A stretch of DNA of 64,000 nucleotides from assembly GCF_963676685.1 (NCBI RefSeq), contig NC_092353.1, positions 60,078,001 to 60,142,000 on the forward strand, in the 5' to 3' direction. This stretch comes from Mytilus edulis (lineage: Eukaryota). The notes beneath the pieces were generated by a model. The model was not told where the DNA came from. It saw only the letters and a program-made list of their open reading frames with translations, and ran no database searches. Made by a program: the position numbers and the translations under genes. This document shows positions 8,016 to 64,000 of the stretch, piece by piece (position 1 is the stretch's first letter; each line of letters begins with the position of its first letter).

Positions 8016-11000
8016 TCAAATTTTATCCAAAAAATTCGTTAAAGCTGGTATAACTAGGTTCATTCCTTTTCTCTTCCTGACTTCACCCACTACAGTTGTT
8101 GCTCTTGATTCTGTTTGGGAATCTAGCGGTTCTCCAGGTAAATATTGCCAATGATCAAACACACACTGTGGGAAAGCTTGTCCTCCTGTCTGGCCTCGAA
8201 GATCTTCTGTGAAACCTAGAATATATTTGTAAACAGTAAATATTTGTTTAAACTATGGTCTTCGTAATTTGTTTGGTTTATTGTTTTTCTCCCCGATTTA
8301 ACTAGATATAAAATGTGTAATGAATTGGGATTGCAATCTGGTGAATGTTGGAAACTAAGGTCTTTTGAGGAACTTTACTGTTGTATTTCACAAAACAGTG
8401 TATTGGATTCCATTTTTATAATTTTTCGTATCATTTTGGGAAAAAACATATATTTAAGAAATATTATACAAAACCAGGGCCAATATTGAAATTATATATG
8501 CATAAGACAAGACTTCGGATATTTGAATATGAAGCATATAATGGACTTTGAATAACTATATTATTATTCTTACCAAATGATTCGTTAACTGGTAGATAAG
8601 CTTTTATTTGATGTAAGGGAACACCTTCCTGTTGAACTGCATCAATAACATGTCCTCGTCTCTTCGAAAGTACATTGTAGACTCCTCCCATTTCTGTTGA
8701 GGGAACCTGTATTAAGAGGAAAAGCTTAGATATAACTAAAGTTGTATAGTAGATAATATGATGTATAAAATTTATTATGTTGTCAGGTATGTAAAAAACT
8801 ATCATTATAATGCAACGAATGCAAATAAGGACCGGCTAAATAGGACTGCTTAAATTGTCACTATTGCCTGAAACCTTATCACATCTAAATTACTAGTACG
8901 AATTTAAATAAAGTAATTATTGAAGTGCACTCAAATCCAATTGTACATTTGAAATTAAACAAAAACATTAAAGAAGGCAGAGGAGAATAGAGAAAGGAAA
9001 TTCAACTAACCTGGATTTCGACGAGGTACACAGGTTCCATAATTCTTGGTTTGGCTGTTAGCATTGATGCAATCATAGCTCTTCTTACAGCTGGCATAAA
9101 CTGACCACCCCCTCTATGACTTGGGTCACCATGGATCTTCATGTCATGTATATCGAAACGGACACCACGTAAACTCTCTTCACATAAAATGCCCTGAAAA
9201 TTAATAGTATCACAAGTTAACAAACTTTTCGTGCTGGTTAACATTTGTCAATTTCCTTGAAATTTTAACCAAAGGTATGGCATTTTTAAGACTTAAGTTA
9301 ATGCAAACAATTATTTGTCCATATTTTCTGTTAAAGAGGTTAACAAATGTCTATATATTATTTTTAGAAAATATTTTATATTAGTGATATATTATAATTC
9401 GTCTTATTTATAACTTCAGTTCTTCATTCATAACTTAACTGCCATCACTCACAATGGGGGGGGGGGGGCTGGGGTATGGTACGGAAACACTTTTGAATAG
9501 AATTAATAAATGTTTACTAAGCAGACGATTGTGGTTCTCTTTTAATCATAATAAAAATATATGAACTAAATTACTAACCTCCCCAGACGCCCACTGGAAG
9601 CCTGCTACTATAACGTCCTTGATGTCATGAAGATTCTGGACTCCTTTGGTGCAGTCTACCAGCATATTAGGACCAGAATTGGATGGTCCAAAACACCAGA
9701 TTTTCTTGGCCTGCATTGGATCAAAGTCATACTTGTCGACCAGATACCTTGTTCTTTCTTTAACATCTTGTGTGGCTGTTACTTTGCCCTGTAATCATAA
9801 ATATTAAACATGATTAAGACTTTGACCGGCTATGATGATATTTAATATACTTCATTATAAGTCCTTTAAAATTATGCAAGATAATAAATACTACTACTAG
9901 GAAAGATGTGATTTTGGTTTATTAATTTATGACAAAATCCTTCAAAAAAATGGCCCTTTCATTGCCATTATTTATCTCCAGCGAAGTATTAACTGGGCAA
10001 CACACTAATGTGGAGAAAAGCTAACCCCACCGTCACTCCAAAAATTAACAGCTGGCCTAAGGGTGTGAAATTGTTTTATATATGTTCATTGCTCACATCT
10101 GAATTAAATTTAACTATTGCACAATAATACGTTATCAAATAAACACTTACACTTTCAATATCAATAACGAGACCATCAGGTAGAGGTGATGCTGTCATGT
10201 ATATCCTGTTGAGTTTGTTTGCTGTCTTTGCCAGACATATCTGTTCAGATGTTGTGCTTACTGTCTCTCTGTAAGTGACTACAGGTTGAGATACCTATAT
10301 TCAGAAAACAATATGTTATTTAATATATATATAACCAATAGTACATGTAGAAATCACGATCTTAACTGAATGGAAATTAATGTACACTATTGTAAATATG
10401 TGGCCTGAAATTTCAAAATCGTATTTTTCGTTTTATTTTCGGTAATGAATGAGACCATGGCTGTTAAGAGATTATCGGAATTAATAGTTAACAACAGTAA
10501 CTTGTTGCAAAAGATTATATAGCAAGCATAAAATGCAATAACTACCTTTAGTGGAACACATGCATGTTCAGTTTCAAGATCTTTCAGACATATTTCCAGG
10601 TGTAATTCTCCAGCTCCAGATACAATGTGTTGTCCACCCTCCAGACCACACTGGACCAAAGGGTCAGACTTGGCAAGTCGCTTCATGCCTTCTACAAGTT
10701 TAGGTAAATCTGCTGCATTTTTAACCTCTACTGCTACTCTTACGACTGGACTAACTGAAAACTTCATTACCTGTTGAAACAATTTATTTTATAAAAAGAG
10801 TGTTAAAACTCTGTAACCGTTCTTTGATGGTATTAGCTGTGGACGGTTTTTTTTTTGGTATTATCTGTTACTGTTCTAATAAGTATTAACTGTTGCAGTT
10901 CGTAAAAACAGTTTTGTTGTGATATACTAGAGTAATCCCAATCCAATGTTATTCCACAACAAAAACATGGGGTCAACTTACAAAACGGACACTTAACATG

Positions 11001-37473: not shown

Positions 37474-40400
37474 CTAATTATCACAATCCCAATTTTGATA
37501 TTCATAATTGTATTTAGAGTTGTACACAGCAAAACCAGTGATGTCCAGTTCCTTTCCAAGTTGATTATTGTTGTAGTCCGAACTTTTTGCAGCATCAGGG
37601 ACTGCTGTTTTTGTCCCGATTGCTCTCCAAGCTTCTTTCACTTTTCCAATAACTTGTTTTGCAAGATAGACAGTCGCCAACTGAAACATGGAATCCTGAA
37701 AGCACAAACAATCATGAATGGTATATCTTCAATGTTCATATTCCATTTTTTTTGTCTAAAAATTATCAACAAGGATTTTTGACCTCCTTTTGTAAGCATT
37801 AAGTTTGAATTCATTTTAATCTCGTCAACAAATGATAAAGCCGCAATAAAACCGATTGAAATATTTTATTTGTGTGCTATAATTTTTTTTAACGTCCAGT
37901 GGCAAATATTACATGCTAATTCCGTCTGTAAACCAAACAGCAATAACTGTTACTTCAATAATTTGTGTGGCCGGAATGAAGGACAGGTTGCGTTTTACCA
38001 GCGGAACCCGATTTGAAAGAAAGAGAGCATTTAGCTTTGCACCAGGCATATCAAGAACTCCTTAAATAGTTGTGACAAGGTTACTTATTGCAGTCACAAG
38101 TCATAATATAAAAGACAGGACTAAAAAGGTGAAGCCAGGCATTCTTTGCTCTTACTTTTAAATGATAGAACAGCAAGCTATAGAGGACACAAAAACGATT
38201 AATCTGTGAATATTATATGTCACTGATAGTGAATACATGGTCTATATACCATGATACAAAGTTACTAGCTTACCGTTTCAAAGCCATAAAGTGAAAGACT
38301 CTTCTGCATTTTACTTAAGTCAAGGGACTTTTCTAATTCATCAAGACCCTGTGTAACACTTTCATTGAGATTATCTCGTCTAAAACTTGTAAACGAAGTT
38401 TCTCGACTGTAACTGTATAAACCTCCAAACCACGTGACGCTAGTATCCAGATATTTTTGGAACTGAGATACGTTTGGTGAACTTGTTTCATCTAATGAAC
38501 TGAATGGATCAAAATGGTTATTTGATAAATTGGAAGCATCTTGTTCTCCTGGAATACTCATTGAACTTGTATTGCTGATGAAACTTGAACTTGCACATGG
38601 TGGCCCTAATTCATTGCAGTGGTTATCGTCATCTTGCATTAAATTATCGCCTGCTTCTGCGTTACTATAGCCACCATCGTGGTAAAGGTTTTCCACGTCA
38701 GCATCATCATCTTTACCCACCTGCAAACATTGAAAGTTGTCGTCCAAGTGCTCAAGACCAAACGCGTCTGCATCACAAACAAGCTTTGGTCCATATTTCT
38801 GGATACTCTGATGAGGATGTTCCGTACATTGCGGTCTAACACAAAGCAAGGTACTCATAACATTGTCTGGAACATCGCCACGAGCTCTTAAGTCAAACAC
38901 GCGGAGGGATTTGGATGGTATTCCGGATCTTACTGATACAAGTTTGCAGCTCTCTTCGGTTAAAACATTAAAACATCCATCTCCCGACGAATGATGCATC
39001 TTCTTTAAGACGAGCATTCCTTGTTTTGAAATAATATGTTTTTGTGGTTTCTTTATCTTTCTGAGTTTATCCATCCAATCTATATCTTTTGGCTGTTTTT
39101 GTGAGAGGATTGACTTTTCGGTGTTTGAGCTAGACCCGATGTGTCTTCTGTTTTTATGCTTTTCAGGAACATGCTGTCTGCCTGTCGGTACGACAAGAAA
39201 ATGATAAAAAAATAAATATTGTTAAATTTTGAAATCGAAATTTATAACATATATAATAACTAATTGGGCTACACATGGCTTTTTCCTAAAAAGTTTGAAA
39301 CAGTGAACTAGCATGATTCCTTCGTGCGAAACGGGTAAAGATATTGCTTACAATCCGTTACAAAATTTTAATTTATTGCTTCAAGGGTTCGGAACCCTCC
39401 ACAGTTTCGGTTATGGGTACGCGTAGTGATCCTTTTTATTCACTACTGCAGGTTTAATAGCTTATGTGATTGTATGACAAGAATGCCCACGCATGCAGTG
39501 TTATTAAGAAACTCAGCTGTAATTCTTGACAGAAACATAGGTCGAAGATGCATTACAATTAAAAGCAGACATTGTCATCTGTTCTTCAGACTTTTTATGA
39601 CGTGTTTATGCTAACGGATAATCTCTTATAATATATTAGTGTTTTACTATTGTTTTTATGTAAGTTTTTTTTATGCTTCGTGCCGATTTTATGAGTAAAC
39701 CCATTTCCAAATTTTTTAATTTCCCAATTTGTTCTTATGTTGTGCTGTTCCACTAATGTCCCAGATCAGGCGGAAGCTGAGCGCTCACGAAAACATGATT
39801 CACCATGCCAGGATTGCTTCAGGAAGTTTTAAAGATAACGGTTTGTGTTTTTATGCCCCACCTACGATAGTAGAGGGGCATTATGTTTTCTGGTCTGCCT
39901 CCGTCAGTTCGTCCGTCCGTGCGTCCGTTCGCTTCAGGTTAAAGTTTTTGGTCAAGGTAGATTTTTTCTTATTGTTGAGAACCGATCGGAGACAAATATT
40001 TGCTTATATCTACGTCATTTGAATATGTTCATTGCCATTAAATCACATCTGCTTACTTTGGTTGTTGATAATACACCCAATATTTAAACACATACACGAA
40101 AAAAAGCCAGATGATGGAATTTCAGTTGAACGACAAAACATAAAATATACCAATTTCTTAGTGGCTGACATACACAAATTTAATATGCAGATTGACTTGA
40201 CTTGCAAAACATAAAACATTTTCTGTATTACTTTTCTTTGTACGTATAAATGAATGAGCTGTTGTGACGAAAAACCGTTTATATTAAGAGAACAGTAGGG
40301 AACGTAGGTAAAATGTCTACCACCGGAAAAAAACATTTGGTATGCGCGAAAATTTCCAAATATTCAGAAAGTGTATTATATGATATTGATTACCTTTAGA

Positions 40401-45059: not shown

Positions 45060-45314
45060 GCACGTTTAACTCCGCCACATTCTTCTTTTTCTTCTTAGAT
45101 ATAGAAGTTAAACTCAATAATGAGTACTCAAAACTTGTGCGTTACGTAGGTGTTGGTAATGTCTATTTACAATAAAAGATCAAAGATAAAAAAAGAAAAG
45201 AAAATACGGTGCATGCTGAACAGTTGGTGCAGGATAAAAACATTCCATCATCTAGGTAACCAGTGTCTTGAAAGCTTCGATAGTGGGAGCTTTCACTGTC
45301 GGTTTCGGTTATTT

Positions 45315-45660
45315 TTTTCCAGGCTATTACTGTTCTTGGAAAGAATGAGCATTTGTAGTAATCATGTCTTGGGCTGAAGATGGTGTATGCCACGGTATTG
45401 TAGTGTCTTGATGTTCTATTTAGTGGAATGAGGTAAGTATCTGTTGGAATTGCTACCAGTCCATTTACAATTTTGTAAAATATGCATAATCTGATGTTCA
45501 CTCTTCGTTGGTAGAGAGGTATCCAGTTAAGCTTGCTTATCATGCTTGTGACACTCGATTCGTTACTGTAGTCGTTGAATATATAGCAAGCTGCTCTTTT
45601 TTACCCGCTCTATTTTGTCAATATTTTCTTGCGTATAGGGATCCCATATGGCTGCGCTAT
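45315..45660 (-). mobile_element. 5'-truncated LINE (CR1/L2 group) ORF2 C-terminal remnant
   Basis: AAIWDPY...IDKIERV, then (frameshift) SVTSMISKLNWIPLYQRR...FYKIVNG...SFFPRTVIAW. Confidence 0.8.
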
Positions 45661-45930: not shown

Positions 45931-46329
45931 CTATATATGGATTAAATCAGAATGAGAGTTCTTATTATTTCGATACTGCACCCAGGCGTATTATTTGCAA
46001 TAATAAAATCCTCGCATCAGTTGGTAGAAATACGTCTAATATTTCTACTATTGGCGACTTAGAATGAACATCATGTTTGAATAAGCAGCGATTTACTTGT
46101 GTTGGGCTTTTGTTTAAACTAACACGAACTGTTGATATGATATTTGGAGTTGGATATCATGTCGACGGAACGGCTGGAATACGGAAGTGAACAAGATGGT
46201 CAACTTGTTGGAAATTAAGAACATTTTTAGTGATGTGTCATTAAGTACAAAAGTAGCCATGAAAAAAGTCACTAAACATGTTAACATCCTAAATAATCTA
46301 GAATGTTAACGATTACGGAAAAGACAATG

Positions 46330-46570
46330 CAAATACCTTTTGAAGACCGTTTATGTGTTTATTGCTCTGACAATAGTGTTGAAACTGAGAAACATTTTTT
46401 ATTGAACTGTTGTCTATATAATGACTTAAGATTTGACCTTTACTTAGAATGTTTACAACATATTTATAGTTTGGAGAATTTGAATGACGATTTAAAATCT
46501 ATACAAAGCATGAATTGCTCCGAGATTCAGCCAATTTTATGTAAAAGTATACATAAGTTTTTTTTATGCG
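46330..46570 (+). mobile_element. LINE ORF2 3' remnant with CCHC zinc knuckle
   Basis: PFEDRLCVYC...VETEKHFLLNCCLYNDLR. Confidence 0.7.
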
Positions 46571-49500
46571 ACGTAAATTATTTACATAATTTTTATTGTT
46601 TTTCATGCGACATAAATTGTTTGCTTAAGTATTTTGCTGGTTTTATTTGCCATGTCAAAAATGTATTTCATTTTTCATTTTATATAATTTTGTAGTGTTT
46701 TATCTGTGTGAATTTTCTTTACGCTGTTTTAAGAAATGATTAATGTCCTCTTTTCTTGTATACGAATTACAAACTAATTTGCACTTATAACAGCAACACG
46801 ACGGGTACAAAATATCGACTATGAACTCCCCTCTCCCCATCCCCACTTTGGTGGTGTTAGTGATGCTAAATCGTCAGTTATCAGTGTAATGTCGTGTTGC
46901 TGTTGTAAGTCTTCTCGTTGTTTTCGTTGTTTTGTTTTTGAGGTCATGTTGATGTCGTTTATATAGGTTTTGAAAATTTCGATTGCCTCCTTGGCATCTT
47001 CCCTGTCTCTTTAAAAGACTGTGGCACTTCTTGAATATTTTTGCAATGCATTTACTTGTTTTTAATATATATTGTATGTGACTGTCCCAAGTCAGGAGGA
47101 TGTAATCCAGTGCATGGTGGTGTTGGTTGCTGTCTGTCTGTCATGTTTGGTTTTTGGTTTTCTTTTTTTGTTTCGTGAACTTCATGCTATGTAGTTTTTC
47201 TCATTTCAGGCCGTACGTTGACATGCTCTCCGCTTCATTTGAACTCTAGAAGACAGTTGTCTCATTGGCAATCATATTTCCACATCTCCTTATTTTTATA
47301 AAAGTCACTGGACATTTTGTTTTCGACCTCATCGACACAACGACATGAGGACATTTATACTGCAACTACGTTATTTGCGCGATTTAGGTGGTATTTGAGT
47401 TTAAATCAAAAATGTTAGAATTTGTTCATACTTTGCAAAAACGTAGATATATATTCAGAAAAATAATAAAAATGATAGGTCACAGCGCATGTTTCAAGTT
47501 ACATGCAGGTTGTGACAAAATGACAAAAAAACCCCATCATTATGTGATTAGAAGCTAAACTGAACGATAGAATTGAAAATCAAATACGAGAAGATAGCTT
47601 TTAGAAAATGCTTTGAGAAATTCAAAAGAAAATATAGGGTAACCGTGCGTTTTTCCCGGCCAAAATACAAAACAGCAAAATTCCATGTATATACAAATGT
47701 AGTATATTGTGTTGCATTGTAAAAATTACAAAAACGAATAAATGCCACCAGACGCTTGGACTTGGTAGTTCTCTTATTGATGATACTAGCCAAGACAATT
47801 TTATCACTTCGAAATAAAAATATTAACGGAGTACTACGCGATAGCATTTTTAAGTGTACGCCCGAACCTCGTACAGGAGTCTGGGGACCATCACCAAGTT
47901 CAGGTCATAGATCTTTGAAATAGATCGAGAGGACGAAGCACCAGAAGCTTACGAGTTATCAAGAATGAGATATCCTTTTTGTAATAAATAGCATTAACAC
48001 ATTTAACTCATCAATAGAAAGATACTTGACTGTCTTATTTGTGTATTTTATGTTATTTTTTTCATTGTGTTGATTTGGAATCTAATGGGCCTTGGTTTTG
48101 GAGAAAAATGTCCAAACCAGTCGTGAGATATTGTAAAATATGTTCAAAAGCAGACGTTTGATAAAAAGAAATCGACAGAAAACCCAAAACTTCAGAAATA
48201 GGAAAAAGCAAGTCCACATTTCAATGTTAATATTTTTTTTTTTTTTTTTTACTATTTGTCTAGTTTTCACCTCATTTTTTTGGTTCAAATTTCGTTAATG
48301 ATCGGAAACATGAAACAACTAAATTTTATGGATGTTCAGGTGTAATATGAACATTCATAAAGGGTTCCCTGGAACGTATAGTCCCGCCTGGGATTGCCAT
48401 AATGATTGTAAAAGTGTATTGTTGACAGAAAAAAAAAAGCCAAACATCTTAATATGTAGATATTATTTTTGATCTTACGTATTTATGAGCTTCTGTCCAA
48501 GTTTCATGACAATCTATACACTGTCAGGTTGATATAAAAAAATATTTGCAAAGAGGTAAGTCCGTTTATAAGTATTATATTCTTAAAAAAAGAAAGAAAT
48601 ATACTTTTAAAATTTTGCCTCAGATATTATTCATAAAAAAACTTCTATTAAAGTTTCATAAATTCGATGAAAGTTTTGACAAAGTAATTGATGCTTAAAA
48701 ACTTATACGCCAAACTGTAGTCTCGCCAACCGCAAAACCAGTTTTCTTTATTAGTAAGTACGGGAAAATTATAAACACGTATTCCCCATTTAACTCTGGA
48801 TTCTTTTTATCATACACAGTTTTTACTCAATTTCCGTGAAATTTCTGGAAGCTTTGCAAACGGTATCGAACCTGAATGTCAAACGGAATATATGATTGAT
48901 ATGTCCCACTTTTGAACCGGGAAAACCAACGGTCTAATCTATTATAATAAACGCGAAACGAGAAACACTTATGAACCACACCAACAAACGACACAAAAAG
49001 AACATCAGGTTCCTGAAAGATACAACCTTGGCAGAAAATGAACATAATATGTAATATGATACAAGTTGATTGAAAACAACTACAAGCCAGGGAAAGAATT
49101 GCAAAGTTGTTCCTATTTAATTTACTTTGATGAGAATAATTTTCTTTAAATCATTGTCTCTATTTCTCAATGGAATCTACATATTAGTTGAAACGCGGAC
49201 CGCGAAGATGACCCATAAATGAACTGGTTAGGAAACTGACGTATACATATTACCGCTTGCTCAACATGGAACTGAGGTAACATGATACTTTATTTGCACA
49301 AGTACACATAAAGCAAAAAAACTATTTGTATACCTGTTATTTGTACAATAGTTGGCTAATTGCAGGATAGATAATTAGGTATGATAATCCGAAATCAATT
49401 CTTAAAGAAGTATGATATATCAAAAATGTAATGAATTACAGAAACAATGAAAATGATATGGCAGATTAATTTATTTTGGCCGAACAGCAATTTCTGATGT

Positions 49501-50483: not shown

Positions 50484-50909
50484 CATGGTGAATTTATATT
50501 TGATTGATTGTTGGTTGCTTAACGTCCATGGTGCACTTATAATTGATGGATTGTTGGTTGCTTAATGTCCATGGTGAATTTATAATTGATTGATTGTTGA
50601 TTGCTTAACGTCCATGGTGAATTCATAGACCTGCCGACCATTCTGCTACGATTAAGCGTTTTGATTTAAATATTGAATAGAAATATATTTGGAATTCCCC
50701 TTTACTATTTATGTTCATAACTTTATAAGTGATAAGTATTTTATGGTCAACCAATGTAACGTTCATGGTGAATTTATAGACCTGCCGACCATTCTGCTAC
50801 GATTAAGCGTTTGGATTGAAATATTGAATAGAAATATATTTGGAATTCCCCTTTACTATTTATGTTCATAACTTTACAAGTGATAAGTATTTTATGGTCA
50901 ACCAATGTA
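50484..50909. repeat. Compound tandem repeat: 43 bp x3, then 151 bp x2
   Basis: CATGGTG starts units at 50484, 50527, 50570, 50613 and 50764. Confidence 0.85.
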
Positions 50910-51365
50910 TTTACAATGTATCATAGACCAGTCCAATTAACATAAACTTTTAAAAAAATATTGTGCAATTGTTATTTCGTTTTGCAATTCAGAGATTTCC
51001 ACTCGCAAAACATTAGTTTTTTTCAATATTTACTCTTCATCTTCTACATGTAACCTTTTTATACAACATTGGTCGACTTCATCTCAGTGTCATTCTGAAT
51101 TTGAATAAAATATTTGCACCCTGAATGGTACACATACATTTACATCAACAACCGATCATTTTTTTCATTTTTTTTCTCCTATTTTTTTTTCGCAATTTAG
51201 TTTCTTACCTCTAATAGTACTTTTGATTGAAAAGGTGTTTGAGTGTTTCTGCAATATACAGTTTTGTGTCAACAGAAAATGATGATGAGTTTTTGTAAGT
51301 TTTTTTATTACAATTTCTTATGTTTATTTCTGTCTCGTACAATAATAATTTATTACTTCGTAGGT

Positions 51366-54300
51366 ATGAAATTATTCTCGGAGTATACAGATCGGAAGAT
51401 GTTTTATAAAATTGTTTTTACCACAATACTAGGAATAGCAGTAGTTCGTTTATATATATGGAAGTTTAGAGGTAAGACATATTAGTATATACATAATATG
51501 CACTTTGTTTTTTTGCACCTGCATGATCTGTTTATCATTATAGATTACAAATTAGTTAAAATTCGTTCTTATAACAATATGGTATACTATACATGTATGT
51601 ATCATAACGAGTGAAAATGGGATATTGCTTGATATCAACTCGCATTTTTTTTATTTCAATATAATAATTAACGAGCCTAAGGCGAGTTAACTATTACTTT
51701 TCATATCAAATAACGTGAGTATCAAGCGATATCCAATTTTCACTTGTCTCAACCCTATTTTACTTACTTGTAAAATTAATATTCCGCGAAATGTTGCACA
51801 TGTAGTATGACGTCAATTCCATTGCAACTGTCGACCCTTTACTATAGGAAATATTCGTGTCAGATTCATCAAATGAATTATGTTAACGTCCCAACAGAAA
51901 TGGGATGCAATGTTTAAATGTATACCGTTTTTAATCACTTAAAATATTTAAGATACTAAGTTTCTTAAAAACATTTTGATTTCATTTTGTCATTGTTTTC
52001 GGTAAATGAAAATGTTACCAATTAGGAAATGTCTACATCCTTATGATACAACAAAAACACAAATGATAAGAAATTCAGGAATACAAGGAAAACCCTTAAA
52101 TGAACTAATTATATAATGACTGTACACAGAGTTTTGTGAAATTTGATCTTCTTATATTAAAAAAAACTATTATTAATATACATTTCAGACCTATTGGCGA
52201 CCTTCTGCTGTTGTCTGTTCTATGGTCGGGTTGTTGTCTCTCTGACACATTCCCCATTTTATTTCAAAATTTTGGGGCTTCCATCAAGTTAGTTTGTAAA
52301 TGCAAGTGGTTTTATTGCTCAATAAAGGCAACAGTATTACTACCGGTGTTCAAAAGGCATAAATCGATTGAGAGAAAGAAGTTAAATCTGTCTCATTTCG
52401 TGGCATCCAATTATTATTTAAATTCATTGCTGCTTGTCTGCTAGAACTGAAATGAAACATTAATTTGAAATGACTGAACTTACATTATTTTGAATAATAT
52501 TTTTAATCATAAAACGCAATTGAAACTTTCAAATCCCGTAATTGCACTATGTGACGAATAATTGATATATATATATATATACTGCAGCTGTGCTATTTGA
52601 GCAGTCAAATTGCATCATGACCGTATATTCATATGTGATATACAGTCACTGACCGTATATCGCCTTGTTTATGACGTTGACAATGCGTTTCCGTAGAGTT
52701 TAATTTATGATGTTGACAATGCGTTGTCGTAGAGTTTAATTTATGACGTCAGTAAAACATACAGGTTCGTGGAAATTTTACGTCTTCCGCTCAAAATTAA
52801 AAATGATGGCTTTTACCAAAAAACTTCATTTAGAACAGTTATAAGAGTTGCAGTATATAAAGAATAACCATACATTGTCTCGAAATATCAATATTATTTG
52901 TACTCGGCTCGAAACAGGTAGAAATGCTCGGCTTTCTATCTGTTTCTAAGCCTTGTACAAATAACCTTAATATTTCGAGACAATGTATGGTTATTCTATA
53001 TATAGGAAGTTGCTGAACGTCAAGCAGTACATACTAGTATTACATATTGCATATTGATATTCAGGACGAAAACATGTCCATGTGATATGGTGTGTACCTG
53101 ACTTTGGACTAGACTTATACACTACATCCGTCAAGTAACAGTACAAAAAATACTTTTCATTTCAATCACATAAAATATTCAGACTCTGAGCTGTCACGTC
53201 TTCGCATGATGCTTCTCCTTACCACTGCGTGCCACAGGAAGCGTTCACTTTTATATGCTTAGAAAATTTGCTTAAGACGATTTGATAAAGGTTCCTTTCA
53301 ACTTTTTAAATAGACTGAAAATAATGTGCTCAAATTGTACACCCTTTAAATATAATCTGCATATGAAACTTGAGCATTTTTGCTGTATAAAGTATGCTTG
53401 AGAAGTTGATGAACTACCTGACAGCACTACAAGCTATTAACGATGCGATGCAGTGAATTATTTGAAATGATTTAAAAAGGACAGCAGTGTACAGAAATGA
53501 GAACATATATGAATGATTTGTTGAGGTCGATGGCTGTATGTATTGATTATTAATTGACTACACTTTTATTGGACTTAATATAATGAAAACTGTCTATGCA
53601 ATATAAGGTGTCAACTCGGCCGGATCAGAACTCGGCCAATATAGATTTTTTTCTGTATTGGCCGAGTTCTGATCCGGCCAATACAGGATTTCGGAACGTC
53701 TCTTGATTTTAGATCGAAAATCACGATAAACACAAACTGAAAGTAAACAGTTGTTTGGAAGACGCAGTTTTCATAAACTCACCATAAACACACCTCAGGC
53801 CAATACAGCAAGCCTCGAACCAACAACAAGGACAATACAGAAATACTTACGTAATACTATCATATTATAACATGCCCTTTTCGATTATGACCCTGGAACA
53901 GGGGTCGAATTTAAGGTTCATGTGGACCCTATGGCTAAAATGGCCGTATTTTCACCTCAAATTTTACTCTGAGTACAGGCAAACCTGTGCATCTGGAAAA
54001 GTTTCCCTAGATAAATAGAAATCAAATGCATTGTATGATTTAGAAAATTCATAACTTAACTGGATTTTGCCGTACACTTTTTTTCGTCCCTGCAGAAGAT
54101 GATTAAATTGACAAACAGTTGAGTTTACCTTGATATGGTCCACTCAGGTACACAGTTTAAATAACCAATTATTGTCATGTATCTATTGTCCATCTCATGT
54201 CCATGTCAAGCAATACAGCTCACTTCAATTATTACCTGTGGGGAAGTTCTCAAACCTGTTTCCCAACTTAGTTTATTTTGGCACCTTCTGGAGGAATGAA

Positions 54301-57300
54301 AAAAAGTGTACGGCAAAATCCTGGTAAGTTTTTATTTTTCTAAAACATAAAACATATTTGAAATTTATTTATCTAGGGCATGCTATGCCTGAATTTTTTT
54401 ACAGGTGCGCAGGTTTGTCTGTACTCAGAGTAAATTTTGAGGTGAAAATACGGCCATTTTAGCCATAGGGTCCACATGAACCTTAAGCTTTTTTGCGTAC
54501 TGGCCAGCCGGACCAGTGGACTGAAAACTCTACTGGTCCGGCTCCAAATCTACTGGTCCTGCAAAAATGACATTAATTTGACAAACACTAATATAAATTT
54601 TTCACATATTGTACAGTTCATTAAATTCCGATCTACTATATAATGCAACCATTCACGATCTTTTTCCCATGATTTTTGGTATTTGCGTTTCCTTTTGTCA
54701 CTTTCGTATACTTTATTTCGATCTTCCTTTTGATTTTCAGTTATCTTAATTTTTTTGTCCGACGGTTTAACTCCTTTCAAAAATTTCCACATTTTATATT
54801 GTTGTGAAGGACGCTCACCCGAGATATTAATTAACTTGATCAATTGTAATACCCCCAGTACCGTGTAATTGATTTCACAGGTAAATTGTTTTGTAAACAA
54901 ACGGAGATTGCGATGCAATCAGTGATTTTTATCGACAAATTTCTACTGGTCCGCCGGACCACTAGCTGACAAAATCTACTGGTCCGACGCAAATTTTACT
55001 AGTCCCGGACTACCGGACTAGCGCTAATTTCGACCACTGCCCTGGAATCATCCCTCCACCCTTATCAGCCCTCGGCTAAACTTTAAGGCCGATATTGGAG
55101 TCTCGGGATGATACCAGGGCAAACACGGAAAAGACATTTTTTAATCTACTTATCACATATCTAAGTTCTGCAGAAAAGAGAAAAAAAGTTAAATTATAAC
55201 AATTTAATGAAACATAACAGGTAAAATCTTAAATTTCTTATCACAAAAGTGTTATCAATTGTCGTTAAGGATGCATTACCGTCACGTCATTCGAAATCAG
55301 GGCACAATAACCTAAAACCTTTTTTTTTCACCGGACAATTTTGAGGTAACTACATAAAAAAATATGCAAAACCCAACGTATTCGTAACAAATATGTAATA
55401 AAAAGTATTATGAACTCATATAAGTCTTCGAACGAGTGATTGTGATCATCTGGTTGGAGACAACTACATAATACCTATTAAAGTATTAAATCATTATTAT
55501 CTCTTCCAGGAAACGTTTCTAAACTGTTAAATCAAGAAGAAATAAACTTTCTCCGGATTTATTTACTTTGTCAGAAGCATGCGACGGATGCCTTAAGATT
55601 TATTTTCGATACGCATGTTCCGAAATCATTACTCACATCGCATCTAAGTAAATGTAGTACCTTTTTTTGGAGAAAAGACGAAAAAATCATTCTTTTTCCA
55701 GGTATGTATCAATATATAGACTTGTGTTTTTCTTCCAAATTTTAGTATATGTGTGCAATACTTTATTGCATTCTGTTGATAACGAACACAAATACATTAA
55801 TTTCTTTCGAGATAAAGCTTTGCTGTATAAACTATTTCATTATTTAGGTTCCTTTTTTATACTTTGTTTTTCACATTTGATTATTGTTGAACGAGCTTTA
55901 AGTGCGCATTGAGAAATAATATTGTGTGATCAATTTGTATCATATTTAATATGATTATTTTTTTATATACCAGTTTCAGGTGGCCAAGTTAAAAGTACTG
56001 ACTTTGACTCGTCATTGCTATATAAACTAATCAGGAATACCCTCAATCACAAAATTGCTCCTCCAACGAGTGGATGGGGAACAGAACCATTACCTGGAGA
56101 TCGATCCGAAGCAGATGATATTGAAAGAATCCGTTGCTATAGAAACAAAATAGCCCATAACACAGAATTCAAGATATCTAATAAACAATTTTTGAAACAA
56201 TGGGAAGACCTTTCTAAGGTATTATATTATTTTAGATGTTCAAAAGCATTTGTTCTTAAATAATTGTTGTAAATAAATTGGTATGTCCTCTATTTAAGAT
56301 AAAGATAGAAGTTCGACCAAGAAGCTGTGGGTCCAATCGTAAGCCTTGTAACCTTGAAAGTTAATAATATGCAAGAAACGGTAAATTGTTTGATGTCACA
56401 ATACTTTTAAAGATTGTTAAAAAATAACACTTTATCAGTTTCGTATATCAATATATTTGATTTCAATCTTCATACACGTCAAAAGTTCAATATTCAATGC
56501 CGAATAGACACGTTTTGAGATTGTGTCATTAAAATATGAGCTTATACCTTGACTAAAATGCATCAAGCTTCAAGGTGTCTTTCACAAGTAAAGTCACTAT
56601 TCTAATGTGAACCAACTGCAATTTAGGAATTATTTAAATTATAGTTTTTACTTGGGAATATCAGTTCTGATGTCTTTATTGCCGAAAGTTGTTATAAATT
56701 TCTTGATCTTCAACTTTTCAATGTTGTTCGTCCAAAGCCTTTCGAGGATATTGAATGGTTTGAACTTTAATATATTAGATATTATGATTGTGTATTAGGC
56801 AAGGCCTTGATCAATTATCTATCATAACAAATGTTAAGAAATACGAAAAATTGCTTTGGTCAAATATTTGATAGCTTAGGATTGACAATATCAAAGTTTA
56901 CAAAAAAAAAATAAAAAAAATAGCCGAACAATGTTTTGCATAATTTAACAAAGACAATTTAATCAATTGCACTTGGGCAGATAATTCTCAATACAACTTG
57001 CAAAAAAGGAATATAACAATTTATTGGATTAAAATCTGGATAGGTCTTTTATCGCTGCTCGATTAAAAAGACGAACCGTGGTTAAAAATCAAAAATGACG
57101 ATATCACAAAGAACAAGACCAGGTGCATGGACAAAGTATGGGCATTTTACCAAGGTACGGGCCTGTACCAAGTCAAGAATATGACAGTTGTTATCCCTTC
57201 GTTTGATGTGTTTGAGCTTTCGGGTTTGTCATTCGATTAAGGACTTTCCGTTTTGAATATCCCTCGTTGTTCAGTGTTTTTGTGATTTTACTTTTTACTA

Positions 57301-60300
57301 TAAATGGTTCCCCTGTCAAACTAATTATAAATGTAACATAAAGAATGGGACAAAATCAATAAAATTACATATACGATGACTTATCTGGTATTTCAAGTAT
57401 TACACAAATGAAGGATTACTAAATCATATCACTGATGAGTCTAGACAGTTTAAAATCGTGTTATGCAAGCAATGTACAAACATATTTAAAATACGCGAAC
57501 ACCAAGTAACATTCTTCGATGGTTTAAATAACAAATGCATGAAAAAAATATATGTACACGAAAATTAACACCACAAAGCAGTGGTAAGTTTAGTTAAGCA
57601 ACGTCACCATTGTTGCAGAGTTTGTTCCTAGTCGACGCGTCGTTCATACTTCTATAAAACAGCCACACGATTACAAACAGAAACCCTTCTAACCAAACAT
57701 TGTAAGGAATCCCTAATGAGTTTATTCATGATAACTATTATATATATAAATAGAACGTGTTATTATAGGCTGTTAACAGATTGAACCAAGGAGCTAAGAG
57801 AACCGAAATAGAATCACTAAAATGCACTCAGTTCAATGGATCTCAGAAAAATGAAATAGAATGTATGAAAAAGAATATTTTCAGAATGAAAGATGAGATA
57901 CATGAACTACAAAATGAACTATTTTCCTGTCAGGATGAAATAAAAGATATAAAGGATGCTGTTATTGACTGTAGAAAGGATATAGAAGAAACAAATGAAA
58001 AACACATTCCTCATCACATATTTAAGATTAGATAAATCATTCCTTTGCTATATATTTATAAATATGCATCGGTTTGATTTCAAAATCATTAAAAAAATGA
58101 TAATTCTTGAGCAACAAAATACGTAAAATATAATGAGTCGACATTTCATGACAATCAAACAGAGCGAGTTTATGATGAAAACTGAAATTAAACAATTGTT
58201 TGAAATTTAAATTTATTCATCTCGGGTTTTCGAGCGTTGTTCATATGACCCCAATTTTTATGTTTTAACATTTTTATAAACATGTTAACATGTTTCAAAC
58301 AGAATACATAGACACAATTTAATTAATCTTTAATTCTCAGCAAATCACCTTTCGCATATGCTTCATTTGACACCAGAAATAACATTTTATAATCGTAAGA
58401 ATCTTATTTCACTTATTTCATTTGTTCAAGCTTAAACTTTACAACACATTTATGACTCAATTTCGCAACACCCGTTTAAATTGTTGAAAGTTGTAAAAGT
58501 AGTTACTAAAATGTCCCTTTTTCAAATAAACCTTAATATTTGTTTAATCAGGGTTAGGGTGGCTATCTTCTGACACCGATGTACCGTTTGAGTCCTTCTC
58601 CTTAATAGTATTTGTTCATTACAAAATCTGCGGAACGATCTTTATTGCCCTCAGAACATGTGGTCTTTATTCAAATACAAACTATGAAATATACAAATAT
58701 AAATCACGCATATTTTTTTTTATTATTTAAGAATGTCAACTTAGAGTTTTGGAAGATTGGAAAAGACAGGATATTGTATTCTGTGATGAAACACAGGGAT
58801 ACAGAGAAGCATTTGAAGAGGCTAAAAAACATCACATAGTGACAATTATCGGCGGTCCTGGTTCCGGTAAAACAGCAACAGCAAGACATATAGCACTACT
58901 GTTCGAAAGGCTTGGGTGGGAGGTTGTCCCTATATGTAAAGAAGAGGAAATACTACGATATGGAAACTGTCATATTCGACAAGTGTTTCTGTTAGATGAT
59001 ATCCTAGGTTCTTTTGCTGTAGATATGAGCAGATTTAATAATATAGTTTCATGCGAGATAAACATAATAAGATCACTTAATGATAAGTCAAAACTTTTGC
59101 TCACATGTCGAAAGTCAGTTTATAACGAGGCTATAATATCAAAACCATTCGTGCTTGAAAATATTGTTGACTTAGAAAGCATGACCAGCGTGTTAAATGA
59201 AATAGAAAAAATGAAAATTCTTACAAATCATTGTTCAGCGGCAGACGTCGACAAAAAGTTTTATAATAAGTTATCTTTAAAGAATACAAAAATTATGTTT
59301 CCATTTTTGTGTCAATTGTTTGCAGCTAATGTAGAATATCAGATGCTTGGCTCAAATTTTTTTGAAAGGCCATTTGAATATATAATTGAAGAAATGAGTA
59401 AACTACAAAAGACAAATACCGCGCAATATGTGTCTTTGGTGTTATGTCTAGTCAACAACAAACAACTATCCAATGAAAATATGCCTTCAAATCATGTAAA
59501 GAAAAGGATTTACAACTCTTGTGGATTAGATAGAGGAACAGCAGATAGAAAGATTTTCGATGCTTTGTCTAATATTGAAGGTACTTTTGTAATGGAGATA
59601 GGACATGACTATTCGTTTATTCATGATTCAATTTACGAAGCCATTGCTTACCACTATGGGCAGGAATTTCCGGAACAGATACTGGAATTCATGCCAAGTA
59701 ATTTTATATTAAATAAAGTGATTGTAGTTGGGAGTCCTACGTTTAATGATTTAAACATTAAGATAAAAGAAAGTCATTTTCTAAAACTAGCCGAAAGACT
59801 GTATTTGGATCTAGAATCAAACAAACTGTTTGATGTTTTTATGAACAAGGCTTTAACATACCAGCCTTTCCTTGAAGTGTTCATTGAACTGATCAGGAAG
59901 AAACCGTACGAGGATTTTAAGTTTACATTTTTAACTCCACGCATTGGTAACAGTGATCATTTAATAAATTATGATGACCTAGGTGAGAGGAAATTTGAAG
60001 ATATTTACCGTGATGAAACAATAAGAAGAGAACTATTAAACGATAAAAGGGAACGAGAATCACTTGAAGGCAAAATAAGTCAATATGTCACACATTCGAT
60101 CAGATTGATAAGTTGGGTTGTTTATTACGGGCACACTCGTCTTTTACAAGAAATTGTTAATCATGTTCTTGATCATAACGATTCTACTGACATCGTCTTC
60201 GGTTCAAATATAGAAGAACAAGCCAGACTACTATTATTGTCCGTTTACAATGGCGATCTATGCTTAATAGAACTAATTATTAGGTATGTAAATAAAGAGA

Positions 60301-61742
60301 GCCTAGGCGCTACACCCTTGTATATGTCCGACGGTTGCCTGGAGTCTAATTATCATAGAACTCTTGATCCTCTAAATGCAGCATGTTACTATGGTTTATT
60401 ACAAGTTGTAGAACTATTAGTACAGTCTGGTATTGACGTCAATTTAGACAACTATCATGAATTTCCAGTGTATGTTGCAACATATAATGGATATTATGAG
60501 ATCGTAAAATACTTAGCTGAAAACGGAGCAGATGTCAATGCTTTTAAATCCGGATTTACAATCTTAAATCCCAGTGTACCACCCTTATATATAGCATCAA
60601 TAAAGGGATATTCCGCTATAGCTAAATGTCTCATTCAAAACGGTGCAGACGTGAATATACCTTTACATAGTGAAATGACAGCTTTATTTAGAGCTTCAGT
60701 AGGGGGTTACATAGAAATTTTAAAAATGCTTGTAGAAATCGGTGCAGACGTCAACTTTTGCAACTTTCGTAACAAATCACCACTGTGTGCTGCTTCAGAA
60801 GAAGGCCATTTAGATATTGTTTTGTATTTGATACAGAGCGGTAGCGATATCAACTTGTGTGACGTGTATGGCAAATCACCACTTTTAGCGTCAATAGAAA
60901 CTGGTCACTTTGATATAGTAAAGCTTTTGGTGGACTATGGGTGTAAAATAAATTCTCAGTTAACTGGTAACATTTTGCCACTTACCTCTGCATTAATGCA
61001 AGGAAATGTCGAAATAGCAACCTATCTTATCCAAACGGGTGCAGATTATAACATGCAAAATGAATATGGAGTGACGTCTATACAACTTGCTCTATGGAAG
61101 AATCATACAGAAATACTGCACCATATTATAGCACTTGAAAACAAAAATAAACCGCAAAGTGGCAATCTCAAATTATATCAGCTGTTAGTAAACATGCATA
61201 AGTTTGAAATATATCCGGAGACCGTTCCTTGTACAAATGAATGCGTCAAAGCCGAAGGACTGAACTATAACGAGCATCGTCTAGCTCTTCTATCATTCAT
61301 TTCAAGAGGTTCTAATGGGGATGATTTAAAGCACTTATTAAAGCTTGGACTAGGCAGTAAATTTCATGCTGAAAAGTTAGACTCTCTCCTATATTATATT
61401 ATAACGGAGGCAGGCGTGACAAAACGTGTTGATAAAGTGCAATCATTACTTGACTTTGGCATACCATCAGATTTTTGGGATTACATATATGTATTTCTTT
61501 TAAAACAAGCAACAACAGTTTTTGAACAAAAGAAAACGGTTTGGAATAAAATATCCTTGAAGTGGTTAAACAACACTAAAGAAATGTTGATGACGTTCGT
61601 TCTGGATATTTCACGGGGTGGACCAAATTCAATTTCAAGGAAGCATCTACATGACTGCAAAATGTTTGAATTTGATGTCGAAGTATATTCTTCCATAATT
61701 TCTTTACTTAAACAACGGACAAGAAGATTATCTATTAAATAA
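51366..61742 (+). CDS. TM anchor - DZIP3-like HEPN - coiled coil - STAND (nSTAND3-type) NTPase - ankyrin repeat protein (~1270 aa if fully spliced)
   Basis: Exons 51366-51471 (hydrophobic helix; joining inferred from phase), 55510-55701 (EEINFLRI...ALRFIFD...ILFP), 55974-56218 (DFDSSLLYKLIRN...PPTSGW...DIERIRCYRNKIAH...FLKQW), 57769-~58030 (heptad coiled coil), 58732-61742. The donor of the coiled-coil exon is not canonical (see findings). Confidence 0.7.
51610..51745. repeat. Imperfect hairpin repeat
   Basis: AGTGAAAATGGGATATTGCTTGATA pairs with TATCAAGCGATATCCAATTTTCACT. Confidence 0.6.
52854..53003. repeat. Imperfect hairpin repeat
   Basis: AGAATAACCATACATTGTCTCGAAATAT pairs with ATATTTCGAGACAATGTATGGTTATTCT. 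Confidence 0.75.
53899..55039 (-). mobile_element. Internally deleted hAT transposon (ZNF862/TTF-zinc-finger type N-terminus)
   Basis: TIR CAG(G/T)GGTCGAA(T/A)TTA; 8-bp TSD CCCTGGAA (53891-53898, 55040-55047); TACTGGTCC subterminal repeats; ORF remnant MWKFL...RKRKYQKSWEKDREWLHY...MNCTIC. Confidence 0.88.
53915..54482. mobile_element. Kolobok-type MITE nested in the hAT element
   Basis: Long TIR GGTTCATGTGGACCCTATGGCTAAAATGGCCGTATTTTCACCTCAAAAT; TTAA on both sides. Confidence 0.88.
58732..61742 (+). CDS. Terminal exon: P-loop STAND NTPase + winged-helix region + ~8-10 ankyrin repeats
   Basis: Uninterrupted ~1000-codon frame after acceptor ttaag. Walker A GGPGSGKT (58851-58874), Walker B VFLLDDILG, LLLTCR, FPFLC, FIHDSIYE. 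Ankyrin units PLNAACYYG, PVYVATYNG, PLYIASIKG, ALFRASVGG, PLCAASEEG, PLLASIETG, PLTSALMQG, SIQLALWKN. Confidence 0.92.
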
Positions 61743-62994: not shown

Positions 62995-64000
62995 TTTTTG
63001 TCGAGCCTGCAACTTTTGTTGCAGAAAGCTCGACATAGGGATAGTGATCCGGCGGCGGCTACGGCGGCTACGGTGGCGGCGTTAGCTAACTTCTTAAAAG
63101 GTTTATATTTTAGAAAGTGAAAGACCTGGATGCTTCATACTTTGTATATAGATGCCTCATGTTACGAAGTTTCCGTCAGTCACATGTCCAATGTCCTTGA
63201 CCTCATTTTCATGGTTCAGTGACCACTTGAAAAAAAAGTTCAGAATTTTTGTAATGTTGAATTCTCTCTTATTATAAGTAATTGGATAACTATATTTGGT
63301 ATGTGCGTACCTTGCAAGTTCCTCATGCCCGTCAGACAGTTTTCATTTGACCTCGACCTCATTTCATGGATCAGTGAACAAGGTTAAGTTTTGGTGGTCA
63401 AGTCCATATCTTAGATACTATGAGCAAAATAGGCTAGTATATTTGGTGTATGGAAGGACTGGAAGGTGTACATGTCCAACTGGCAGGTGTCATCTGACCT
63501 TGACCTCATTTTCATGGTTCAGTGGTTATAGTTAAGTTTTGTGTTTTGGTCTGTTTTTCTCATACTTTATGCAATAGGTCTACTATATTTGTTGTATGGA
63601 ATGATTGTAAGGTGTGCATGTCTAGCGGGCAGATGTCATGTGACCTTGACCTCATTTTCATGGTTCAGTGGTCAAAGTTAAGTTTTTAAGTTTTGGTCTT
63701 TTCATCTAATATTATATGCCAAAGGTCAGCTATATTTGGTGTATGGAAATATATTATGATCTATATGTCAGTCCCGCAGGTTTATTTGACCATGACCTCA
63801 ATTGCACGGTTCATTGCACAGTGTTAAGTTTTTGTGTTTTGGTCTATTTTTCTTAAACTATAAGTAATAGGTCAACTATATTTGTTGTATGGAAGCTTTG
63901 TTAGCTGTACATGTCTACCTGGCATGGTTCATCTGATCTTGACCTCATTTTCATGGTTCATTGGTCTTTGTTTAGCTATCTTGGTTAATGTTAAGTTTAT
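62995..64000 (+). mobile_element. HINE/Helentron-type element with ~147-bp tandem array (runs off the window)
   Basis: TTTTTGTCGAGC...GCTCGACA hairpin, a GGC microsatellite, then GACCTCATTTTCATGGTTCA repeated at ~63200, 63355, 63502, 63648, 63794 and 63941. Confidence 0.8.

What the first reader, a model, noticed from the sequence alone, without database searches (positions are those of the whole stretch)
51366..61742. Membrane-anchored HEPN RNase - STAND NTPase - ankyrin protein: NLR/Avs-like immune effector in an animal
Seen: effector-NTPase-sensor order, with an intact HEPN catalytic motif R-N-x3-H (RNKIAH, 56141-56158), a coiled coil, intact Walker A/B and ~8-10 ankyrin repeats. The upstream exons are mostly missed by the ORF track. 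Established: HEPN RxxxxH domains are dimerisation-activated RNases (RNase L/Ire1 KEN, Cas13, bacterial toxins), and STAND proteins oligomerise when the repeats sense a ligand (NLRs, bacterial Avs). The architecture family is known from bivalve annotations, but I know of no demonstrated function. Inference: a ligand-triggered RNase that cuts tRNA/rRNA/viral RNA. The putative N-terminal TM helix (KIVFTTILGIAVVRLYIW) would tether it to an organelle membrane, which is unusual for this class.
Basis: partly seen in the sequence, partly recalled or inferred. Interest (0 to 1): 0.75.

Follow-up and report, generated by a model that had tools for sequence, protein, structure and literature searches.

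The report
Membrane-tethered mussel RNase sensor, broken allele
This is a real mussel gene, spliced in other individuals, for a protein that likely sits on an internal membrane and likely cuts RNA when its sensor part detects infection; the copy in this genome has lost a splice site and likely makes only a truncated protein.

Summary
The architecture is real: five exons encode a putative signal anchor, HEPN_DZIP3 with R-N-x3-H, a coiled coil, nSTAND3 and about 8-10 ankyrins. The relatives are Mytilus proteins. The full-length protein is therefore unlikely here. Two tandem paralogues beyond the window carry nonsense codons in their ankyrins. The anchor exon is conserved in all three copies and in a RefSeq model, but its splice to the HEPN exon was not seen for this gene. 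The genome holds at least 150 HEPN_DZIP3 matches. HEPN-STAND-repeat proteins in bivalves, and the RNase hypothesis, are in print (PMC3710099, PMC9646362). I did not find the nSTAND3 type (the NTPase of bacterial Avs5), or an N-terminal anchor directly on HEPN, in my searches. Best reading: an NLR-like, oligomerisation-activated RNase on a membrane, under birth-and-death evolution. RNase activity, ligand and localisation are untested. New variant of a known kind; interest 0.5.

The parts
51364..51471 (+). Exon 1 (first coding exon): ATG at 51366 or, more conserved, 51399; putative signal anchor
   Evidence: AG acceptor and phase-1 GT donor; homologous exon in both paralogues and at the start of M. 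californianus model P0003; splice to exon 2 not seen
51411..51461 (+). Hydrophobic helix I16-W32, predicted N-out/C-cytosol signal anchor
   Evidence: KD19 1.75; basic C-flank; topology inferred from the positive-inside rule (recalled)
55510..55701 (+). Exon 2: N-terminal helices of the HEPN domain
   Evidence: 78% and 54% identical exons in paralogues; spliced to exon 3 in 2 of 4 runs
55974..56218 (+). Exon 3: HEPN_DZIP3 core
   Evidence: PF18738 E 1.7e-20; spliced to exon 4 in 3 of 4 runs
56141..56158 (+). HEPN motif R-N-x3-H (RNKIAH)
   Evidence: Sequence; R 70/71, N 69/71, H 70/71 in alignment A2
57769..58019 (+). Exon 4: coiled-coil linker; its last bases and donor are missing in this haplotype
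   Evidence: Weak coiled-coil hits; joint to exon 5 carries 5 letters absent from the window in 3 of 4 runs
58016..58017 (+). Site of a 30-base deletion removing the exon-4 end and its GT donor
   Evidence: X4 and X8 carry 30 extra bases here; X1 and X2 match the window
58033..58035 (+). Stop codon reached if intron 4 is retained (product about 269 aa: anchor-HEPN-coil)
   Evidence: length summed from exon sizes
58732..61742 (+). Exon 5: nSTAND3 NTPase, helical and winged-helix domains, ankyrin repeats, degenerate helical C-terminus
   Evidence: Open frame of 1003 codons; Pfam; AlphaFold2 mean pLDDT 84.3
58851..58874 (+). Walker A GGPGSGKT
   Evidence: K conserved in 82 of 82 rows with a residue
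58986..59000 (+). Walker B FLLDD
   Evidence: Both D 83 of 83
59109..59111 (+). Invariant Arg after strand 4 (sensor-1 position, label recalled)
   Evidence: 83 of 83
60354..61163 (+). Ankyrin array (about 8 regular repeats), putative sensor
   Evidence: Pfam; model and fold matches, Z up to 28.6

Best explanation
This is a Mytilus-type gene for an anchor-HEPN-coiled coil-nSTAND3-ankyrin protein that likely works as a membrane-tethered, NLR-like immune RNase, and the allele in this window has lost its exon-4 splice donor and is likely a null. Shown: the domains, the conserved catalytic and nucleotide-binding residues, splicing of exons 2-5 in other mussels, and the 30-base deletion. Inferred: the helix inserts N-out, leaving the rest in the cytosol at the ER or another internal membrane; the ankyrins hold the NTPase closed until a ligand binds; nucleotide exchange drives oligomerisation; the coiled coil pairs two HEPN domains into a composite active site; nearby tRNA, rRNA, mRNA or viral RNA is cut, giving translation arrest or cell death. 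Frequent loss-of-function alleles would reflect birth-and-death turnover of a costly immune gene.
For: Pfam hits over cut-off. One contig (X16 record 9) bridges exons 3-4 (97 letters on the short side) and 4-5 (253). M. galloprovincialis P0105 has the same junction peptide. R, N, H conserved in 70, 69, 70 of 71 selected relatives; dN/dS between paralogues 0.17-0.25 for HEPN, 0.20-0.25 for the NBD, 0.32-0.38 for ankyrins, 0.51 for the C-terminus. A model of a 60%-identical HEPN matches Csm6 best (Z 8.6, rmsd 3.0, 107 aligned), with AbiF, LsoA, RnlA and sacsin HEPN in the list. Bacterial Avs5 uses nSTAND3 between an effector and a repeat sensor and needs its Walker motifs. At least 150 HEPN_DZIP3 matches in this genome; the same HEPN is also fused to CARD, SAM and an Ig-like segment. 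Anchor exon in 3 of 3 tandem copies, in P0003, P0047, P0048 and in one contiguous Logan ORF, P0118. Deletion seen against 2 DNA runs and matched by 2 others; all 5 phase-1 GT or GC sites in exon 4 give a stop with the natural acceptor.
Against: No activity, ligand, induction or localisation data; 2 papers hold DZIP3 + HEPN + RNase activity, and in the passages read both only predict it. The conservation counts come from relatives found with the motif-bearing query; over all 150 rows a strict R[NDS]xxxH was in 104. Z 8.6 is within the range the tool calls common for helical bundles, and Foldseek found nothing at E<=0.001. The exon 1-2 splice was not seen for this gene, and its helix is the weakest compared. 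Only 3 of 105 relatives that cover the HEPN start have an N-terminal TM-like stretch (7 pass the hydropathy cut), so the anchor is not essential to the family. In-frame cryptic splices to non-natural acceptors exist on paper, so the allele may not be fully null.
Confidence: 0.55

Rival explanations
1. The protein is a membrane-bound RNase or RNA regulator of stress or housekeeping (Ire1/RIDD-like decay of ER-bound RNA) triggered by a host signal, not by pathogens.
For: Anchor plus HEPN resembles Ire1 and C6orf70, for which ER RNA decay is described or predicted (PMC3710099 passages). Spliced contigs occur in 3 studies of unknown treatment.
Against: Copy number of at least 150 HEPN_DZIP3 matches, domain shuffling, faster change in the sensor and segregating broken alleles fit conflict genes better than housekeeping genes.
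Confidence: 0.13
2. The HEPN domain binds RNA or partners without being the killing output; the protein acts as a sensor or scaffold that signals through other CARD- or death-domain HEPN proteins.
For: HEPN_DZIP3 also occurs with CARD domains (P0104, P0117). The sacsin HEPN is reported as RNA-binding (search listing). No DZIP3-type HEPN has a solved sequence relative (0 hits).
Against: R, N and H are near-invariant and the domain is under purifying selection.
Confidence: 0.14
3. The RNase-NLR reading holds but the protein is soluble: exon 1 is untranslated, skipped or not a working anchor.
For: Exon 1-2 joint not seen. Short 12-residue uncharged core followed by Arg. 69 of 105 relatives begin directly with HEPN.
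Against: Exon 1 keeps a hydrophobic frame and a phase-1 donor in all three paralogues. RefSeq XP_052087894.1 starts with it. Exon 2 supplies no Met before the first HEPN helix. P0118 shows TM and HEPN in one ORF.
Confidence: 0.1
4. The whole three-gene cluster is decaying and has no current function in this species.
For: All 3 copies in this assembly carry a lesion; one X17 contig has a further 2-base deletion in exon 3.
Against: Intact exon 4-5 joints occur in runs labelled with both organisms, exon 5 is open for 1003 codons, and dN/dS is well below 1, though that averages over past history.
Confidence: 0.08

Closest known systems
Bivalve and cnidarian HEPN_DZIP3-NACHT-repeat proteins (Takeuchi et al., PMC9646362; Anantharaman et al., PMC3710099)
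   Same: Same HEPN family with Rx4H motif, N-terminal to a STAND NTPase and repeats; lineage-specific expansion; RNase and immune role already proposed (passages).
   Different: NTPase is nSTAND3, not NACHT; sensor is ankyrin; N-terminal anchor directly before HEPN, not described in the passages read.
Bacterial Avs5 (AVAST type 5; bioRxiv 10.1101/2025.07.08.663546)
   Same: Effector-nSTAND3-helical repeats; Walker A/B and a conserved Arg are needed for immunity there (passages and abstract).
   Different: Effector is Sir2 NADase and sensor is TPR/Sel1/PPR; prokaryotic; no Avs model hit in PADLOC, whose best NTPase hit was PDC-S73.
RNase L and Ire1 (KEN-type HEPN)
   Same: HEPN RNase; ankyrin sensor in RNase L; membrane anchor in Ire1; dimerisation-activated (recalled; family table).
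   Different: Switch is a STAND NTPase rather than a kinase; domain order is reversed; different HEPN family.
Flax L6 and M (signal-anchored plant NLRs; review PMC3801107)
   Same: N-terminal signal anchor ahead of the effector domain of a STAND receptor, setting the organelle (passage).
   Different: TIR-NB-ARC-LRR (architecture recalled); unrelated effector; convergent.
Crassostrea receptor-like TM-DED-TRADD-N proteins with STAND, HEPN or ankyrin tails (PMC8195603)
   Same: Bivalve expansion that combines TM, STAND, HEPN and ankyrin modules (passage).
   Different: Those have an extracellular cysteine-rich domain and DED-TRADD-N; here the anchor is N-terminal with no ectodomain.

Membership tests
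HEPN_DZIP3 (PF18738) | Profile score over the curated cut-off | tested here: met
   73.7 bits against 27 on exon 3 alone
HEPN_DZIP3 (PF18738) | Rx4-6H motif, Asn after Arg | tested here: met
   RNKIAH; conservation
HEPN superfamily | HEPN helical fold | tested here: inconclusive
   Model of relative P0101: top hit Csm6 Z 8.6 and several HEPN proteins listed, but Z is in the range common for helical bundles; Foldseek none at E<=0.001
HEPN RNases | Dimer with composite active site | not tested
HEPN RNases | RNA cleavage | not testable with these tools
   Needs an assay
nSTAND3 / STAND NTPases (PF20720) | Profile score over cut-off with intact Walker A, Walker B and sensor Arg | tested here: met
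   102.5 bits against 27.2; motifs
nSTAND3 / STAND NTPases (PF20720) | NBD followed by helical and winged-helix domains | tested here: inconclusive
   Secondary structure of the model fits, but fold searches were filled by ankyrin hits
STAND receptors | Ligand-induced oligomerisation | not testable with these tools
   No ligand known
Animal NLR in the strict sense | NACHT or NB-ARC domain plus LRR sensor | tested here: not met
   No NACHT, NB-ARC or LRR among 14 Pfam families at E<=0.1 for exon 5; repeats are ankyrins
Avs5 (AVAST type 5) | nSTAND3 in an effector-NTPase-repeat order | tested here: met
Avs5 (AVAST type 5) | Sir2 effector and TPR/Sel1/PPR sensor | tested here: not met
   HEPN and ankyrin instead; no Avs model in PADLOC at E<=0.01
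RNase L / Ire1 | Kinase domain followed by KEN | tested here: not met
   No kinase or KEN hit in the 5 frames scanned or in P0003
N-out/C-in signal anchor | N-terminal hydrophobic core with a more basic C-flank and no cleavage motif | tested here: inconclusive
   C-flank more positive than N-flank in 9 of 10 rows (P0118 the exception; exon-only flanks for the genomic copies); window core only 12 uncharged residues; no dedicated predictor run
N-out/C-in signal anchor | Membrane insertion and organelle | not testable with these tools
   Needs cell biology

The most novel reading that the evidence does not exclude
Mussels carry a one-polypeptide 'RNase L': an Avs5-type (nSTAND3) receptor tethered to an internal membrane that, on binding a pathogen ligand with its ankyrins, oligomerises and destroys RNA locally at membrane-bound ribosomes or viral replication sites. 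Its cost is high enough that null alleles segregate commonly, and the deletion allele here may leave an anchored HEPN-coil fragment without its brake.
Probability: 0.25. Interest if true: 0.8.

Novelty: new variant of a known kind. Interest (0 to 1): 0.5.

Why it matters
Animal NLRs are known to signal through adaptor domains. A STAND receptor whose own RNase is the output would bring the bacterial Avs logic into animals and give a function to a family of hundreds of unexplained bivalve genes. This locus is useful because natural intact and null alleles of one gene exist, so genotype against infection outcome can be tested in a farmed genus. The HEPN piece is small enough for a direct RNase assay. 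For annotation, it warns that the reference allele is broken although every domain looks intact.

Tried and rejected
Homodimer prediction of the HEPN domain was not available, so dimer geometry is open. Raw RNA reads X22 (about 6 in 100 read) gave no depth on exons 3-5; this says nothing on expression. No listed holder was on record as RNA; X15-X17 are guessed RNA, supported here only by their spliced joints. Sequence searches of solved structures gave 0 hits for exon 3 and only P-loop-level hits for the NTPase. Fold searches of exon 5 were filled by ankyrins. A tree of 71 HEPN domains did not show significant clustering of anchor-bearing rows (5 changes for 6 rows; 65 of 500 shuffles as low; quick tree only; many unlabelled rows are truncated models). 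A genome search with exon 1 found only itself and one paralogue. Seven other HEPN loci were fetched; no anchor exon was detected by tblastn, which is insensitive for such short exons. Alignment A1 used the wrong strand for the paralogues and was discarded. The Atlas search gave only hits under 0.9, leads only. Three look-ups of earlier findings returned nothing. Rejected: assembly error as the cause of the missing donor, because two runs reproduce it in unbroken contigs (both may be the assembly's source). Rejected: a coding exon upstream of exon 1, weakly, because the acceptor lies in different phases in two copies (35 and 19 bases before the shared ATG, read). Supplements of the papers were not opened and may list this architecture.
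Full report
Observation. The window holds one long open frame, 58731-61742, with nSTAND3 (102.5 bits, cut-off 27.2) and ankyrin families, and a short frame with HEPN_DZIP3 (73.7 bits, cut-off 27). RNKIAH is at 56141-56158 as stated. Splice signals give five coding exons: 51364-51471, 55510-55701, 55974-56218, 57769-about 58019 and 58732-61742. Phases match across the first three introns. The closest proteins are from Mytilus (89% M. coruscus over residues 1-480 of exon 5).

Co-transcription. Contigs of three runs from three studies, guessed to be RNA, show spliced joints. Exons 2-3 are joined in 2 of 4 runs laid and exons 3-4 in 3 of 4, both GT..AG. Exons 4-5 are joined in 3 of 4, but only X16 has more than 30 letters on the short side. 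That X16 contig bridges exons 3-4 and 4-5, so the HEPN exon is on the same spliced sequence as the NTPase exon. The raw-read run gave no depth on exons 3-5. The exon 1-2 joint was not among the 15 of 35 joints shown, though two runs had depth in the bin that holds exon 1.

The allele is broken. The exon 4-5 joint in RNA contains five letters that the window lacks, and the window has no GT at the end of exon 4, unlike both paralogues. DNA runs X4 and X8 carry 30 extra bases behind 58016 that hold those letters and the donor. X1 and X2, one study and possibly the assembly's source, match the window in one unbroken contig each. The deletion is therefore in the sequencing data, and no second allele was seen there (homozygous or hemizygous; not resolved). 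X16 and X17, with the same organism label as X1 and X2, show the intact joint, so the lesion is polymorphic. Intron retention stops at 58033-58035 (about 269 aa: anchor, HEPN, coil). Exon skipping shifts the frame. All 5 phase-1 GT or GC sites in exon 4 give a stop with the natural acceptor. In-frame routes need acceptors inside exon 5. The intact form would be about 1,270 aa by exon sums; M. galloprovincialis P0105 has the same junction. One X17 contig (depth 24.9) has a further 2-base deletion at 56070, before the catalytic motif.

Neighbourhood and family. Two inverted paralogues lie about 16-47 kb beyond the window's end, with all five exons. Each has one nonsense codon in the ankyrin array, at codons 716 and 596 of exon 5; these were not checked against reads. 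The genome gave 150 of 150 scored HEPN_DZIP3 candidates over the cut-off, out of 651 candidates, and 21 of 21 scored nSTAND3 candidates, out of 604. The representative library holds 1,177 relatives at E<=0.001. The same HEPN occurs with CARD, SAM and an Ig-like segment (the Ig label is my reading, with no Pfam hit).

Selection and structure. In 71 rows (65 of 68 short relatives selected from 150 hits, three multi-HEPN rows dropped, plus six Mytilus-like proteins) R, N and H are kept in 70, 69 and 70. Over all 150 hits a strict R[NDS]xxxH was in 104. In 83 exon-5 rows the Walker A Lys (82 of 82), both Walker B Asp and the sensor Arg (83 of 83) are invariant. Pairwise dN/dS against the two paralogues is 0.17 and 0.25 for HEPN, 0.20 and 0.25 for the NBD, 0.32 and 0.38 for ankyrins and 0.51 for the C-terminus. 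An AlphaFold2 model of a 60%-identical HEPN matches Csm6 best (Z 8.6, rmsd 3.0, 107 aligned), with other HEPN proteins lower; this Z is modest for a helical bundle and Foldseek found nothing significant. The exon-5 model (pLDDT 84.3) shows a P-loop domain, helical and winged-helix-like parts and about 8 regular ankyrin pairs.

The anchor. Exon 1 has a homologue in both paralogues. M. californianus RefSeq XP_052087894.1 starts with it and runs on through HEPN, nSTAND3 and ankyrins. Two more Mytilus proteins have anchor, Ig-like segment, HEPN, nSTAND3 and ankyrin, and a Logan ORF joins TM and HEPN directly. The C-flank is more positive than the N-flank in 9 of 10 rows, which by the positive-inside rule (recalled) puts the catalytic parts in the cytosol. 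Against: the window's helix is the weakest, and the anchor is rare, with 3 N-terminal TM-like stretches among 105 relatives, 69 of which begin with HEPN.

Mechanism. Most likely an autoinhibited STAND switch on an internal membrane. Ligand binding to the ankyrins would allow oligomerisation, the coiled coil would pair HEPN domains, and nearby RNA would be cut. The domains, motifs, splicing and lesion are shown; topology, trigger, dimer and RNase activity are inferred from HEPN and STAND biology (confidence 0.55). Rivals are a stress or housekeeping RNase (0.13), a non-catalytic scaffold (0.14), a soluble version (0.10) and a decaying cluster (0.08).

Literature. PMC3710099 (passages) lists DZIP3-type HEPN fused to ankyrin, CARD, NACHT and LRR, expanded in oyster, and proposes RNA degradation linked to NACHT. 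PMC9646362 (passages) reports more than 50 HEPN-NACHT proteins in pearl oyster, 194 of 202 with the motif, with haplotype variation and an antiviral RNase hypothesis. PMC8195603 (passages) describes Crassostrea receptor-like proteins with TM, STAND, HEPN and ankyrin modules. bioRxiv 10.1101/2025.07.08.663546 (passages and abstract) shows that Avs5 uses nSTAND3. PMC3801107 (passage) describes signal-anchored flax NLRs. Searches listed no paper on an animal HEPN-nSTAND3-ankyrin protein or a tested DZIP3-type RNase; only 5 papers hold the word nSTAND3 (4 listed). The library lacks most subscription journals, and supplements were not opened.

Verdict. A real gene of a known, expanded and untested bivalve class, in a variant (nSTAND3, ankyrin sensor, N-terminal anchor) that I did not find described, represented here by a likely null allele. 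It is not an NLR or Avs member in the strict sense but likely works like one. Interest 0.5.

Noticed in passing
G000:C10 about 60,158,200-60,166,600 and 60,178,100-60,186,500 (loci L005-L008, minus strand): Two inverted tandem paralogues with the same five exons and intact splice donors; each has one nonsense codon in the ankyrin array, so all three copies in this assembly are damaged.
   Followed up: partly
window 56070: One RNA-like contig of run X17 (depth 24.9) lacks 2 bases in the HEPN exon and has 14 other differences in 247 letters: a possible second null allele or a converted copy.
   Followed up: no
G000:C11 10,752,689-10,760,700 (L013): A gene with an Ig-like exon followed by the two HEPN exons, close to P0104 (Ig-like, HEPN, CARD).
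   Followed up: partly
proteins P0047, P0048: Mytilus models with anchor, Ig-like segment, HEPN, coiled coil, nSTAND3 and few ankyrins; strongly acidic N-flank and basic C-flank.
   Followed up: partly
L011 3042-4750 (+): Ankyrin-only frames of 174 and 407 aa that overlap in different frames, suggesting a frameshifted ankyrin gene.
   Followed up: no
window 8464-10788 (-): Exons with EFG_III and EFG_C hits: an elongation factor 2-like GTPase gene, ordinary.
   Followed up: partly
window 38265-39221 (-): Open frame of 318 aa with no Pfam hit.
   Followed up: no
window 52187-52259 and 57161-57300: Very high-copy short interspersed repeats in introns 1 and 3 that draw thousands-fold contig depth in RNA-like runs.
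   Followed up: no
window 50484-50909 and 63342-63966: Tandem repeats of period 43 and 151 just upstream of exon 1, and of period 146 downstream of the gene.
   Followed up: no
window 45163-45600 and 46297-46695: Short frames that read like the tail of non-LTR retrotransposon ORFs (my recall; no Pfam hit).
   Followed up: no
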